Below, piece after piece: positions 42,060-50,790 of a stretch of DNA of 64,000 bases. The position numbers and the translations under genes are program-made. The notes beneath the pieces are model-generated. The model had not been told where the DNA came from. It searched no databases and saw only the letters and a program-made list of their open reading frames with translations. Origin of the DNA: the human T2T-CHM13v2.0 reference genome, Homo sapiens; the NCBI RefSeq assembly GCF_009914755.1, contig NC_060947.1; one strand, written 5' to 3'. Within the stretch, counting starts at the first letter, position 1. Every line of letters starts with the position of its first letter.

Positions 42060-42658
42060 TTTATCACACCCCACACCATAACTGCTCCTTCCTCACGACC
42101 AGGTCTACCTTCATAATTTACTCAGAATTTGACCATTCTTTAATCTTTTTCACCACTACCACTTTGTTCTAAGCCACCATTCACTCACTGGCCTCCTTAC
42201 TCCTCCACCTGTTTCCACCCTTGCCTGTCTAGTCTGTTTTCCTCACAGCAGCCAGAGGGATACTTTTTTTTTTTTTTTGAGACGGAGTCTTGCTCTGTCA
42301 CCAGGCTGGAGTGCAGCGGCGCGATCTCTGCTCGCTGCAACCTCCACCTCCCGGGTTCAAGCAATTCTCCTGCCTTGGCCTCCCGAGTAGCTGGGACTAC
42401 AGGCATGCGCCACCACACCTAGCTAATTTTTGTATTTTTAGTAGAGATGGGGTTTCACCATGTTGGCCAGGATGGTCTCGATCTCTTGACCTTGTGATCC
42501 GCCCGCTTTGGCCTCCGAAAGTGCTGGGATTATAGGCGTAAGCCACTGCGCTTGGCCCAGAGGAATACTTTCAATGCTGAAGTCAGATATGTCACTTTTC
42601 TGCTCCAAATCCTTCAATGACTATCTCATTCAGAGTAAAAGTTAAAATCCTTACAATG
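42060..42658 (+). mobile_element. L2, left part of the L2 that hosts the L1PB insertion
   Basis: CAGCAGCCAGAG...AAGTCAGATATGTCAC...CAGAGTAAAAGTTAAAATCCTTACAATG. Confidence 0.75.
42264..42557 (-). mobile_element. Full-length Alu (AluSc-like) with TSD
   Basis: CAGAGG(G/A)ATACTTT occurs at 42253-42266 and 42558-42571. Confidence 0.93.
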
Positions 42659-44038
42659 GGGGATTCAGGGGATCATGGCAGACGGGAGACAGGACTAGAT
42701 TGCACCTCAAGACACAGCAGCATGCAGAGGTTTGCACTGTGAATTTTACCTCCAGATCGACTGCAAGAACAAACCAGCAATGCCGAAAGGACCCACAGAC
42801 CCTCTGAAGGAAGCAGACTGCTCTTGCAGGAGCTGGGAGAAACTCCAAATACTGTGAGTGCCCCAACAGGGGAAGTGGGAAAGGGAGACCCTCCTCTCCC
42901 AAACACACACCCCCACTGGAGAAGCTGAATGTCTGTTTGTGGGAGAAGTTTCCGACTTTACCTGGAGCTGAGTCAGCTTGGAGAACCGAGTGACATACAG
43001 GGGTAGAGGAAGCAGCAGAAAGGCCCCGGGAGCTCGCTGGGTCCCCAAGCAGCCCATTCCTGCCTGGCACCACAGGGATCCATCCGGAGGGTGGCCAGAG
43101 GAGCAGGGGTTAAAACTTCACAGGAAGAAGAAATTCTCTAGCTGAACTTTGTAACGATTTGAACAGGGCGAGAAGCCTCCTGGCCAGAACTCAGGGGAGG
43201 GAGCGAATCAGGTGTGCAGACTTCACAGGCTTGGGAAGAACTAAAGCCCTTTTCTCTCGCAGCTGGGAGGAGGAGAGCCCTGGGCAAATTTTGAAGCCCA
43301 TCTCCCCCTCATCCTGGAAACAGACTTGGGGCTGTTGGGGGCAGGCACAGTGGGAATGAGACTGGCCATTCAGTTTGCGTGGGAGCTGGGTGAGGCCCGT
43401 GACTGCCTGCTTTCCCCCACTTCCCTGACAACCTTCATGACTCAGTAGAGGCAGCCATAATCCTCCTAGGTACACAACCCTGGTGACCTGGGAATCTCCT
43501 CCCCATCACCCACAGCAGCTGCAGCAAGACCAACCCAAGGAGAGTCTGAGCTCAGACATGCCTAGCCCTGCCCCCACCTGATGGTTCTTCCCTATCCTCC
43601 TTGGTAGTGGAAGACAAAGGGCATATAATCTTGGGAGTTCTAGAGCCCCACCCACACTACTACAGCTGATAGTTTCTGGAAAGTGCCACCTCCTGGCAGG
43701 AGGCCAACCAGCACAAAAATAGAGCATTAAACCACCAAAGCTAAGGATCCCCACAGAGTCCCTTGCACCCTCCGCCACCTCCACCAGAACAGGCACTGGT
43801 ATCCACGGCTGAGAGACCCATAGACAGTTCACGTCACAAGACTGTGCAGACAACCCCCAGTTGGGTAGACTTGCTGGGTGGCTAGACCCAGAAGAGAGAC
43901 AACAATCACTGCATTTGGGCTCACAGGAAGCCGCATCCATAGGGGATGAGTACTACATCAAGGGAACACCCCATGGGACAAAAGAATCTGAAAAACAGCC
44001 TTCAGCCCTAGACCTTCCCTCTGACAGAGCCTATCCAA

Positions 44039-45059
44039 TTGAGAAGGAACCAGAAAACCAACCCTGGTAATATGACAAAACAAGGCTCTTCAACACCCTC
44101 AAAAAATCACACTAGTTCACCAGCAATAGATCAAAACCAAGAAGAAATCCCAGATTTATATGAAAAAGAATACAAAAGGTTAGTTATTAAGCTAATCAGG
44201 GAAGGACCAGAGAAAGGCAGAGCCCAATGCAAGGAAATCCAAAAAATGATACAAGAAGTGAAGGGAGAAATATTCACGGAAATAGATAGCTTAAAGAAAA
44301 AATAATAAAAAATTCAGGAAGCTTTGGACACACTTTTAGCAATGTGAAATGCTCTGGAAAGTTTCAGCAATAGAATTGAACAAGTAGAAGAAAGAAATTG
44401 AGAGCTCGAAGACAAGGTCTTCAAATTAACCCAATCCAACAAAGACAAAGAAACAAAGAATAAGAAAATATGAACAAAGCTTCCAAGAAGTCTGGGATTA
44501 TGTTAAATGACCAAACCTAAGAATAATTGCTGTACCTGATGAAGAAGAGAATTCTGAAAGCCTGGAAAACATATTTGGGGGAAAAATCAAGGAAAACTTC
44601 CCCAGCCTTGTGAGAGACCTAGACAACCAAATACAAGAAGCACAAAGAACACCTGGGAAATTCATTCCAAAAAGATCTTCACCTAGGCACATTGTCAACA
44701 GGTTATCCAAAGTTAAGACGAAGGAAAGAATCTTAAGAGCTGTGAGACAGAAGCACCAGGTAAGCCATAAAGGAAAACCTATCAGATTAACAGCAGATTT
44801 CTCAGCAGAAACCCTACAAACTAGAAGGGATTAGGGCCCTATCTTCAGCCTCCTCAAACAAAACAATTACCAGCCAAGAACTTTGTATCCAGCGAAAGTA
44901 AACATCATATATGAAGGAAAGATACAGTCGTTTTCAGACAAACAAATGCTGAGAGAATTCGCCATTACCAAACTACCACTACAAGAACTGCTAAAAGGAG
45001 TTCTAAATCTTGAACCAAATCCTGGAAACACATCAAAACAGAACCTCCTTAAAGCATAA
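44039..45059 (+). pseudogene. L1 ORF1 (RNA-binding protein) remnant
   Basis: MRRNQKTNPGNMTKQ and QIQEAQRTPG...PIRLTADFSAETLQ, interrupted by stops and frameshifts. Confidence 0.88.
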
Positions 45060-45222
45060 GTCACACAGGACCTACAAAACAAAAGTACAAGTTAAAAGGC
45101 AAAAACAAAAAACAAAACCAAAGTACACAGGCAACAGAGAGCACAATTAAAGCAACGGTACCTCACATTTCAGTACTAACGTTGAATGTAAATGGCCTAA
45201 ATGTTCCACTTAAGAGATACAG

Positions 45223-45342
45223 TTGGATTAAAATGTTGGCTGTTTTTGTTAATATACTTAAAACTGTAACCAGTGAATAACACCTGTAGTATTTTTTATT
45301 ATAGATTATATTTTATTTCAATAAACTTTGATATTTAGACAA
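45223..45342 (+). pseudogene. Putative retroposed mRNA 3'-UTR end inserted in L1 ORF2
   Basis: A 120-bp AT-rich non-L1 insert with AATAAA at 45320-45325, flanked by AAGAGATACAG at 45212-45222 and 45343-45353. Confidence 0.7.
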
Positions 45343-48969: not shown

Positions 48970-49279
48970 CACACAATGGAATACTATGCAGCCGTAAAAA
49001 GGAATGAATTAACAGCATTTTCAGTGACCTGGATGAGATTGAAGACTATTATTCTAAGTGATGTAACTCAGAAATGTAAAACTAAACTTGTATGTTCTTA
49101 CTGATATGTGGGAGCTGAGCTATGACGACACAAAGGCATAAGAATGATACAATGGACTTTGGGGACTTGGGGGGAAGAGTGGGAAGGGGGTGAGGGATGA
49201 AAGACTACAAATATGGTGCAGTGTATATATGGGTAATGGGTGCACCAAAATCTCACAAATCCCACTGAAGAACTTACTC

Positions 49280-49595
49280 GGCCAGGCGTGGTGGCTCACA
49301 CCTGTAATCCCAGCACTTTGGGAGGCCGAGGAGGCCAGATCACCTGAGCTCAGGAGTTCAAGAGCAGCCTGGCCAACTTGGTGAAACCCTCTCTCTACTA
49401 AAAATATTTTTAAAAAATTAGCTGGGCATGGTTGTGGGCACCTGTAATCCCAGCTACTTGGGAGGCTAAGGCAGGAGAATCACTTGAACCTGGGAGTTGG
49501 AGGTTGCAGTGAGCCAAGATCGCACCACTTGCACTCCAGCCTGGGTGACAGAGTAAGATTCCATCTCAAAAAAAAAAAAAAAAAAAAAAAAAAAA
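49280..49595 (+). mobile_element. Full-length AluS in the L1PB 3'UTR, with A28 tail
   Basis: GGCCAGGCGTGGTGGCTCACACC start. Flanks are AAGAACTTACTC and AAGACTTACTC. Confidence 0.94.
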
Positions 49596-49660
49596 GACTT
49601 ACTCATGTAACCAAATACCCTGTGTACCCCAATAACTTATGGAAAAATAAAAAAGAAAAG

Positions 49661-50321
49661 TTATCCATACATATATTTACCATTAAATATATCATATATG
49701 TCCAGGAGGTGGTTGGGAAACTCTAGTACCCATCAGAACTTGTTAAAACAAAGATTGCTACACTCCCTGCCCCAGGGTATGTGGTTCAGTATGTCTAGGG
49801 TGAGGTCTAAAATTTGCATTTTAACAAATTTCTAGGCTTCTGGTAGGGGACCACACTTTGAAAACCACTGATTTGAGAGATTAAAAGAAAAACTTTAAGT
49901 TTCTTTTTACTTGAAATAAGCCTGAAAAATCATCTAGTTAAATTTCTGTTTGTTACAAGCTTTAAAGAGCAGCTAGTTAGATCTTAAATAAGTATAAATA
50001 TGAAGAGCATATAGTTAAATGTTAAGGCCTTGGTAGGCTAAATGGTATCTCCAATATTTCACATATAGGTAACAACAAATTGAGAGCTAGGACTCCTTGT
50101 TCACTCATACATTTTGTTGAATTGTCTCCATTGGTCTGGAGAATGTCTCCTTTTAATGTATCAACTGTTTTTGGCATGATGGCTATGTACTGTTGATGTA
50201 TGTAGGTTTAAAAAAATGAGATCTGGGAGTTTAAATGCAAGTACTCAACACAGTATCCTGAGTAATTAGAACTGTGTCTATTGCAAAAAGGCTGATCAAT
50301 AAATACTTAACAAAATGAAAA
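49661..50321 (+). other. Putative L1 3'-transduced segment
   Basis: Lies between the L1 tail and the second TSD copy, and ends in AATAAA (50298-50303) plus an A-rich run. Confidence 0.85.
49705..49870. mobile_element. MER5A-like hAT MITE inside the transduced segment
   Basis: CTTGTTAAAACAAAGATTGCT...TCTAGGGTGAGGTCTAAAATTTGCATT...GACCACACTTTGAAAACCACTG. Confidence 0.75.
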
Positions 50322-50790
50322 AAAATCCTTACAATGACTTACAAGTGCCTGCATGGTTTGTTCCCTCGTTAGCTCTACAACATCATATCCTACGACTTTT
50401 CCTCATGCTCACTCTGTTCCAGCCACACTGTTATGTCTGCCTGGAAAAATCTTCCCCAAAACATTCAAATAATTTACTCCCTTACCTCCTTCAGGTCTTA
50501 ATTCAAATTATGTCCCTTTTCAGTGAGATCTTCCCTCACTACCCTATTTAAAATTAAAGTTATCCATACTCCTTATGCCTCTTCCTCATTTCATTTTTCT
50601 TATAGTACTCATCAACATCTAATACACCACATTTATTTCATTAATTTGTTTATAGTCTTTCTCTCCCTCTGCAATATAAGCTTCATGAGGGCAAGATTTT
50701 TGTCTTTTAAAAAAAGCACTGGATATCCCCAGCACCTAGCACAGGGTCTGGCATTGGTAGATGCTTAAAATTTTTTGTTAAACAAATGTT
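50322..50790 (+). mobile_element. L2, right part continuing from 42658 to its 3' end
   Basis: ATCCTTACAATGACTTACAAG...CTCTGTTCCAGCCACACTG...CCCCAGCACCTAGCACAG. Confidence 0.8.

What the first reader, a model, noticed from the sequence alone, without database searches (positions are those of the whole stretch)
42644..50336. Full-length L1PB carrying a ~660-bp 3' transduction, bracketed by a perfect 15-bp TSD
Seen: AAAATCCTTACAATG occurs at 42644-42658, just before the L1 5'UTR, at a canonical TT/AAAA site. It recurs at 50322-50336. The L1's own tail ends at ~49660, so 49661-50321 lies inside the duplication. That segment is non-L1 DNA containing a MER5A-like MITE and ends in AATAAA (50298) plus AACAAAATGAAAAAAAA. 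The host L2 rejoins across the two copies. Established: L1 transcripts read through their weak polyA signal and mobilise 3' flanking DNA. Inference: this DNA came from another locus and tags the source L1. The L1PB type and decayed ORFs point to an early-primate event, and repeat masking would leave most of the segment looking like native unique DNA.
Basis: partly seen in the sequence, partly recalled or inferred. Interest (0 to 1): 0.8.

Follow-up and report, generated by a model that had tools for sequence, protein, structure and literature searches.

The report
Old L1 with 3' transduced tail
A full-length, long-dead L1 retrotransposon on chromosome X carried about 660 bases of chromosome 5 DNA with it when it inserted, which is an ordinary and well-understood by-product of L1 copying, although no L1 now lies at the chromosome 5 source site.

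Summary
An exact 15-nt repeat, AAAATCCTTACAATG, sits at 42644-42658 and 50322-50336. It follows TT and brackets three things:
- a full-length decayed L1 (42659-49660);
- 659 nt of non-L1 DNA (49661-50319);
- a very short A-run.

- The 661-nt tail has one full-length paralogue, on contig C5 (chr5) at 120978181-120978840, 91.6% identical.
- That copy runs past the chrX break point into GT-rich DNA with no A-run, so chr5 looks like the donor and chrX like a polyadenylated retrocopy.
- No sibling copies were found.
- Copies of the host ancient repeat elsewhere in the genome run straight across the rejoined duplication.

One predicted feature fails. No L1 lies upstream of the chr5 segment. The neighbour there is an LTR-like element, and no L1-body match was found in 30 kb.

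Best reading (0.8): a classical L1 3' transduction whose source L1 was never fixed or was later lost. Main rival (about 0.1): a template-switch or RNA-ligation chimera.

The divergence (K2P 0.09) suggests roughly 30-45 Myr, later than "early primate". The L1PB name could not be tested. This is a new member of a well-known kind and of low interest.

The parts
42556..42643 (.). Left half of the host ancient interspersed repeat (L2 3' region by recollection). It ends in TT at 42642-42643, the L1 endonuclease-type TT/AAAA site.
   Evidence: 11 other genomic copies at 74-89% identity. The alignment with 7 of them is. Sequence read.
42644..42658 (+). Target-site duplication, left copy (AAAATCCTTACAATG).
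42659..49660 (+). Full-length decayed L1, 7002 nt including a secondary Alu. It has the 5' terminus and the complete 3' terminus of its family. ORF1 and ORF2 are broken into many pieces.
   Evidence: 5' end: in 19 of 19 family copies the similarity stops within 17 nt of 42659 and the flanks are unrelated; L059 has the identical first 20 nt. 3' end. Pfam hits in order on the + strand: Transposase_22 at 44511-44834, Exo_endo_phos at 45325-45627, RVT_1 at 46753-47046 and 47047-47652.
48936..48970 (.). (TA)n microsatellite inside the ORF2 remnant.
49280..49595 (+). Secondary full-length Alu with an A28 tail, inserted in the L1 3'UTR. Its own duplication is GA(A)CTTACTC at 49270-49279 and 49596-49604.
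   Evidence: Sequence read. Family copies without the Alu read straight through.
49636..49660 (+). L1 terminal motif CTTATGG AAAAATAAAAAA GAAAAG. This is the natural L1 end plus a very short internal A-rich stretch. The BLAST homology to chr5 begins at 49654.
49661..50319 (+). Transduced non-L1 DNA, paralogous to G000:C5:120978181-120978840 (minus strand). It holds an interspersed repeat at about 49735-49887 and AATAAA at 50298-50303.
   Evidence: 92% identity, query 1-659. (alignment A1). (598 of 653 identical, K2P 0.090).
50320..50321 (+). Untemplated A residues, the remnant of the poly(A) tail. The whole A-run is 50318-50325. Two of its A are shared with chr5 and four belong to the duplication.
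50322..50336 (+). Target-site duplication, right copy.
50337..50788 (.). Right half of the host ancient repeat.
   Evidence: 39 genome hits at 66-82% identity over 50428-50708 and 50724-50788. Continuity across the junction is shown.

Best explanation
This is a classical L1 3' transduction.

Proposed sequence of events:
1. A full-length L1 once sat directly upstream of the segment now at chr5:120978181-120978840 (minus strand) of this assembly.
2. It was transcribed through its own weak polyadenylation signal.
3. The transcript was cleaved and polyadenylated 14-16 nt after an AATAAA in the chr5 flank, which is followed on chr5 by a GT-rich stretch.
4. The whole RNA was copied by target-primed reverse transcription into a TT/AAAA site inside an ancient repeat on chrX, which made the 15-nt duplication.

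Shown here:
- the insertion anatomy;
- the full-length L1;
- the single chr5 paralogue that lacks the A-run;
- the colinear host repeat.

Inferred, not shown:
- the L1 and the tail were one RNA;
- the source L1 was on chr5 and either never reached fixation or was later deleted. It is absent from chr5 in this assembly.

Afterwards the L1 decayed, took in an Alu and a (TA)n run, and the poly(A) tail shrank.

Date, inferred from K2P 0.09 and recalled primate divergences: about 30-45 Myr.
For: 1. An exact 15-nt duplication at a TT/AAAA site encloses the L1, the 659 nt and the A-run.
2. The L1 starts at the family's 5' terminus and has the family's complete 3' terminus. The extra DNA therefore begins exactly where read-through predicts.
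3. The own-genome search with 49661-50321 gave 39 matches: 1 self, 1 full-length paralogue on C5 (query 1-659, 92%) and 37 partial hits to an internal repeat only.
4. Alignment A1 shows identity up to ...AATAAATACTTAACAAAATGAA. After that, chrX has A's plus the duplication, while chr5 continues TGAATGAGTAAACAGTTGTCTCTGTGTGTTTTG. That is the pattern of a donor locus and a polyadenylated copy.
5. On chr5 there is no A-run of 8 or more and no duplication candidate within 9 kb downstream, so chr5 is not itself a longer retrocopy.
6. Seven other copies of the host repeat were aligned to the rejoined flanks. 6 of 7 run without a gap across CAATG|ACTTACAA. 3 of 7 also give colinear BLAST matches to the right flank.
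7. At 91.6% identity, an intact 15-mer pair has probability 0.27, so an exact duplication is not at odds with the age.
8. Literature, passages read: the mechanism and the expected anatomy are in PMC4859970. A donor L1 absent from the reference genome is documented for a young transduction family in PMC6425141.
Against: - No L1 lies upstream of the chr5 segment. The adjacent repeat is a discrete LTR-like element. BLAST of window 40000-53000 against 30 kb of chr5 gave 21 alignments, none from the L1 body 42659-48929.
- The review read says a transduction typically shows two homopolymer stretches and carries the source's 3' duplication. Here the internal A-rich stretch is only A6-G-A4-G, and no source duplication can be delimited.
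- The terminal poly(A) is reduced to 2-8 A.
- No sibling insertion shares the tag.
- The presence or absence of the insertion in other primates could not be examined.
Confidence: 0.8

Rival explanations
1. Chimeric retrocopy made by template switching or RNA ligation. Reverse transcription started on the poly(A) of an independent chr5 transcript, copied about 660 nt, then continued on the 3' end of an L1 RNA to its 5' end. No L1 ever sat on chr5.
For: - No L1 or clear L1 remnant lies at the chr5 locus.
- The internal L1 A-tail is almost absent.
- Chimeric L1 insertions with a duplication, an endonuclease site and same-sense parts are documented in bioRxiv 10.1101/2025.02.02.635956 (passages read).
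Against: - In the passages read, the non-L1 partner lies 5' of the L1 (U6, U3, Alu, mRNA exons). Here it lies 3' of a complete L1.
- The junction falls exactly at the natural L1 end, as read-through predicts.
- By recollection of Goodier 2000 and Pickeral 2000 (seen only in reference lists), read-through transduction is far commoner than chimeras.
- An L1 enzyme starting in trans on a foreign RNA and then copying a full 6.7-kb L1 is an unusual order of events.
Confidence: 0.1
2. Two separate events: a 5'-truncated retrocopy of a chr5 transcript inserted first, and an L1 later landed exactly at its 5' edge.
For: None specific, apart from the lack of an L1 at chr5.
Against: - One duplication pair encloses both parts.
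- No second duplication flanks the L1 alone.
- The sequence just after the L1 tail is homologous to chr5, not to the chrX target.
- It needs an insertion at one exact nucleotide.
Confidence: 0.03
3. DNA-level duplication: a 7.7-kb piece of chr5 (L1 plus flank) was pasted into chrX, or chrX DNA was copied to chr5.
For: The paralogy alone.
Against: - The piece starts at the exact L1 5' terminus.
- It ends 14-16 nt after AATAAA with added A's.
- It sits at a TT/AAAA site with a 15-nt duplication. All are marks of target-primed reverse transcription.
- Homology does not extend into either flank of chrX.
Confidence: 0.02

Closest known systems
L1 3' transduction (read-through of the L1 poly(A) signal). 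Described in the review PMC4859970 (passages read). The primary papers Moran 1999, Goodier 2000 and Pickeral 2000 were seen only in its reference list.
   Same: A complete L1 is followed by non-L1 DNA that ends at a downstream AATAAA plus A's. The whole is enclosed by one duplication at an endonuclease-type site. A donor-like paralogue elsewhere lacks the A-run.
   Different: The donor locus has no L1 in this assembly. The internal homopolymer and the source duplication cannot be delimited. The terminal poly(A) is nearly gone. The event is old (K2P 0.09), whereas the catalogues seen here (PMC9311842, PMC4862182) deal with young or polymorphic L1.
Transductions whose donor L1 is absent from the reference genome. 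PMC6425141 (passages read). Solyom 2012 'nonreference LINE-1' (title seen in reference lists only; paper not held).
   Same: The tag maps to a locus that shows no L1 in the assembly examined.
   Different: In those cases the donor is a living polymorphic L1 that can be found in other people. Here the donor would have been lost tens of millions of years ago and cannot be recovered from one genome.
Chimeric L1 insertions made by template switching or RNA ligation: U6/L1, Alu/L1, mRNA/L1. bioRxiv 10.1101/2025.02.02.635956 (passages read).
   Same: Two RNA-derived parts in the same orientation inside one duplication at an endonuclease site.
   Different: In the passages read, the foreign part is 5' of the L1. 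Here it is 3' of a complete L1, at the place read-through predicts.

Membership tests
L1 3' transduction | An L1 with its natural 3' end, followed directly by non-L1 DNA in the same insertion. | tested here: met
   18 of 29 family copies show the identical terminal AACTTATGG motif, 8 show it with 1-2 substitutions, and 3 are interrupted or end early. The window has the motif at 49634-49642, followed by an A-rich stretch to 49660, then DNA homologous to chr5.
L1 3' transduction | One target-site duplication at an endonuclease-type site encloses both the L1 and the extra DNA. | tested here: met
   An exact 15-nt repeat, preceded by TT, with the copies 7678 nt apart.
L1 3' transduction | The extra DNA ends at a downstream poly(A) signal followed by a poly(A) tail. 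| tested here: met
   AATAAA at 50298-50303. The break in homology is 14-16 nt later, followed by A's. The tail is only 2-8 A.
L1 3' transduction | A donor paralogue elsewhere continues past the polyadenylation point without an A-run. | tested here: met
   C5:120978181-120978840, 91.6% identical, continues into GT-rich DNA. No A-run of 8 or more lies within 9 kb downstream.
L1 3' transduction | A source L1 lies directly upstream of the donor segment. | tested here: not met
   The upstream neighbour is an LTR-like element. The L1 body found no match in 30 kb of chr5. This holds for this one assembly only. A lost or unfixed donor is possible, with a precedent for absent donors.
L1 3' transduction | Two homopolymer stretches, and the source's 3' duplication carried inside (feature as stated in PMC4859970). 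| tested here: inconclusive
   The internal stretch is A6-G-A4-G (49649-49660). chr5 has AAAAATTAGAAACG at the border. No duplication can be delimited without a filled source allele.
L1 3' transduction | An empty orthologous site in species that diverged before the insertion. | not testable with these tools
   No other primate genome is held. As a substitute, 6 of 7 paralogous copies of the host repeat run ungapped across the rejoined site.
L1PB subfamily | A best match to the L1PB consensus 5'UTR, ORF and 3' end in a repeat library. | not testable with these tools
   No Dfam or Repbase library is available. The element belongs to a family with at least 1099 candidate 5' ends and at least 5349 candidate 3' ends. 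The nearest copies are 85-92% identical.
Template-switch or ligation chimeric L1 insertion | The foreign RNA part is joined 5' of a (usually truncated) L1 3' part. | tested here: not met
   Here the foreign part is 3' of a complete L1. The feature is as described in the passages read.

The most novel reading that the evidence does not exclude
The chr5 locus never held an L1. Instead, the insertion is a reverse-order chimera: the L1 enzyme started on the poly(A) of an unrelated chr5 transcript and then jumped onto the very 3' end of a full-length L1 RNA. That would place a foreign RNA 3' of a complete L1 without read-through, and such copies would be mis-scored as transductions in every catalogue.
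Probability: 0.1. Interest if true: 0.45.

Novelty: new member of a known kind. Interest (0 to 1): 0.2.

Why it matters
The significance is small.

- It is a clean, old example of L1 moving unrelated DNA between chromosomes, with the donor site identified to the nucleotide at its 3' end.
- It shows that a transduction tag can outlive its source element.
- It adds a 660-nt chrX/chr5 paralogy that repeat masking will not flag.

The site lies between DGKK and SHROOM4 with no annotated function there (hub annotation). Nothing suggests a phenotype.

Tried and rejected
- **chr5 as a sibling.** I considered that chr5 is a longer, 5'-truncated read-through retrocopy rather than the donor. Rejected: no A-run of 8 or more and no shared k-mer of 11 or more between the border and 9 kb downstream.
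- **The repeat upstream on chr5.** I first recalled it as an L1 3'UTR. This was wrong. 11 other copies share discrete ends with unrelated flanks, so it is an LTR-like element. By recollection it is a MaLR THE1/MST type in antisense orientation.
- **An Alu-bearing L1 lineage as a second tag.** The L1 copy in locus L038 (chr16) has an Alu at the same position. However, about 30 of the 40 best-scored loci span an L1-Alu junction near this site, out of 3368 candidates. By a rough estimate from recalled Alu density, independent hits at an A-rich endonuclease-like site can account for that. It was not pursued as a lineage marker.
- **Rfam.** A scan of 42000-51000 gave no family.
- **Classic papers.** Pickeral 2000, Szak 2003 and Solyom 2012 are not held. 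Statements about how common transduction is rest on the review read, the abstract of PMC13009371 (about 25% of insertions in cancer, search listing) and recollection.
- **Is this locus in print?** No search could ask for it by coordinate. The four searches that ran turned up only catalogues of young or polymorphic L1.
- **Right-flank loci.** Colinearity therefore rests on the 7 small loci.
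Full report
**Observation**

The 15-mer AAAATCCTTACAATG occurs exactly twice in the window, at 42644-42658 and 50322-50336, even when two mismatches are allowed. In 42500-50500 it is the longest exact direct repeat listed (D6). Exact 12-13-mers also recur there by chance; one of them is a 12-mer of the duplication itself, inside the L1 at 46896-46907.

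Its placement is what makes it convincing:
- The left copy follows TT (42642-42643) and abuts the first base of the L1.
- The right copy follows AATAAA (50298-50303), 14 more bases and an A-run.

**The L1**

Pfam finds the following, in order on the + strand and in different broken frames:
- an ORF1 RNA-binding domain (44511-44834);
- an endonuclease piece (45325-45627);
- two reverse-transcriptase pieces (46753-47652).

The own-genome search with the first 342 nt scored 40 of 1099 candidates. The 39 non-self hits were 85-89% identical and began at query positions 1-17. In 19 of 19 fetched copies the similarity stops at or within 17 nt of 42659 and the upstream flanks are unrelated. One copy (L059) has the identical first 20 nt. 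The element is therefore 5'-complete.

The search with the 3'UTR (48975-49282) scored 40 of 5349 candidates; the non-self hits were 88-92% identical. Of the 29 fetched copies:
- 18 carry the same terminal AACTTATGG motif followed by an A/T-rich tail;
- 8 carry it with one or two substitutions;
- 3 are interrupted by an Alu or end early.

The window has this terminus at 49634-49654, then GAAAAG, so the L1 is also 3'-complete and its own A-tail is almost absent.

A full-length Alu (49280-49595) with its own duplication GA(A)CTTACTC, and a (TA)n run (48936-48970), are later additions.

**The tail and its paralogue**

Searching the assembly with 49661-50321 gave 39 matches:
- the window itself;
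- one full-length paralogue on contig C5 at 120978181-120978840, minus strand, covering query 1-659;
- 37 partial hits confined to query 73-227 at 70-84% identity. These mark an interspersed repeat inside the tail (MER5A by recollection, name untested).

No sibling copies exist in this genome.

Over 653 aligned positions the two copies share 598 bases. There are 30 transitions, 25 transversions and two 1-nt gaps. K2P is 0.090 and neither copy has a CpG.

At the 3' end both copies read ...AATAAATACTTAACAAAATGAA. After that, chrX has A's and the duplication, whereas chr5 continues TGAATGAGTAAACAGTTGTCTCTGTGTGTTTTG. From general knowledge, a GT-rich stretch at that distance is what follows a working polyadenylation site. 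This asymmetry fixes the direction: chr5-like DNA was the template and chrX is the polyadenylated copy.

chr5 is not itself a longer retrocopy. No A-run of 8 or more and no duplication candidate lies within 9 kb downstream.

**The missing source L1**

BLAST of window 40000-53000 against 30 kb of chr5 around the paralogue gave 21 alignments:
- 11 between Alus;
- 9 between (TA)n runs;
- the one 667-nt paralogy (49654-50319).

None came from the L1 body.

The repeat that ends 9 nt before the border on chr5 is not an L1. 39 non-self hits (85-90%, of 8785 candidates) match it. Eleven fetched copies share discrete ends with unrelated flanks. By recollection these are the ends of a MaLR THE1/MST-type LTR in antisense orientation.

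One oddity remains. At the border chr5 reads GTTATG-AAAAATTA-GAAACG against chrX CTTATGGAAAAATAAAAAAGAAAAG, so five non-A bases (TTATG) of the L1 terminus also appear on chr5. My rough estimate puts this at about 0.5% by chance. It could be a sliver of a deleted source L1. I could not decide between these.

**The host site**

The left flank (42556-42658) finds 11 other copies of an ancient repeat at 74-89% identity. The right flank finds 39 copies at 66-82%, over 50428-50788. Seven small loci were fetched and aligned to the two flanks joined with one copy of the duplication.
- 6 of 7 run without a gap across CAATG|ACTTACAA; one has a deletion there.
- 3 of 7 give BLAST matches to the right flank in colinear order, with offsets of -4, -32 and +43 nt. 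4 of 7 give none at E ≤ 0.01.

The name L2 is a recollection and was not tested.

**Mechanism**

The anatomy fits a read-through transcript: complete L1, foreign DNA starting at the L1 end, a downstream AATAAA, added A's, and one duplication at TT/AAAA. Such a transcript, inserted by target-primed reverse transcription, is described in PMC4859970 (passages read).

The absent donor L1 has a precedent in young families, where the donor is missing from the reference genome (PMC6425141, passages read). At this age the equivalent is a donor allele that was lost by drift or deleted.

The main rival is a chimera made by template switching or RNA ligation (bioRxiv 10.1101/2025.02.02.635956, passages read). 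In the passages read, those chimeras carry the foreign part 5' of the L1, not 3' of a complete one.

I give read-through 0.8, the chimera about 0.1, and two-event or DNA-level origins a few percent together.

**Age**

At 91.6% identity an intact 15-mer pair has probability 0.27, so the perfect duplication is not suspicious.

K2P 0.09 at non-CpG, AT-rich sites lies between recalled human-macaque (about 6%) and human-marmoset (about 11-12%) divergences. That points to roughly 30-45 Myr, which is later than "early primate". This step rests on recalled figures.

**Verdict**

The link to a specific source L1 is not shown. The process is textbook, and I saw no sign that this locus has a function. 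It is a new member of a known kind and of low interest.

Noticed in passing
window 49636-49660 versus L002 about 2150-2175 (chr5 border): chr5 reads GTTATG-AAAAATTA-GAAACG where chrX has the L1 terminus CTTATGGAAAAATAAAAAAGAAAAG. The shared TTATG could be a sliver of a deleted source L1 or chance (my rough estimate about 0.5%).
   Followed up: partly
window 49270-49604; L038 (G000:C16:8444463-8444769 region); L032: Another L1 copy of the family (chr16) has an Alu in the same orientation at the same nucleotide of the 3'UTR, with the same duplicated ACTTACTC. L032 has one 4 nt further on. About 30 of the 40 best-scored loci span an L1-Alu junction near this site. This looks like an Alu insertion hot spot at an A-rich site rather than a shared lineage.
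   Followed up: partly
window 49661-49675 versus 42646-42654: The first bases of the transduced DNA (TTATCCATACA) resemble the core of the duplication (ATCCTTACA), matching 8 of 9. The chr5 copy has TTTCCATACA, so the bases are native to the donor and the likeness is probably chance.
   Followed up: partly
window 46896-46907: TAAAATCCTTAC, 12 nt overlapping the duplication, also occurs inside the L1 ORF2 remnant (D3). It is a chance repeat and a reminder that 12-mers recur in 8 kb.
   Followed up: no
L062 (G000:C1:83138465-83138782) and L063 (G000:C7:78042282-78042600): Two L1 5' ends on different chromosomes have identical 60-nt upstream flanks and identical first 60 nt. They probably lie in a segmental duplication.
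   Followed up: no
window 41738-42066 and 42242-42560: Two Alu copies lie in the host ancient repeat just upstream of the L1 and break that repeat into several pieces.
   Followed up: no
L002 2189-2494 (chr5): The LTR-like element next to the donor segment lacks about 95 nt at its far end compared with 11 other copies.
   Followed up: no
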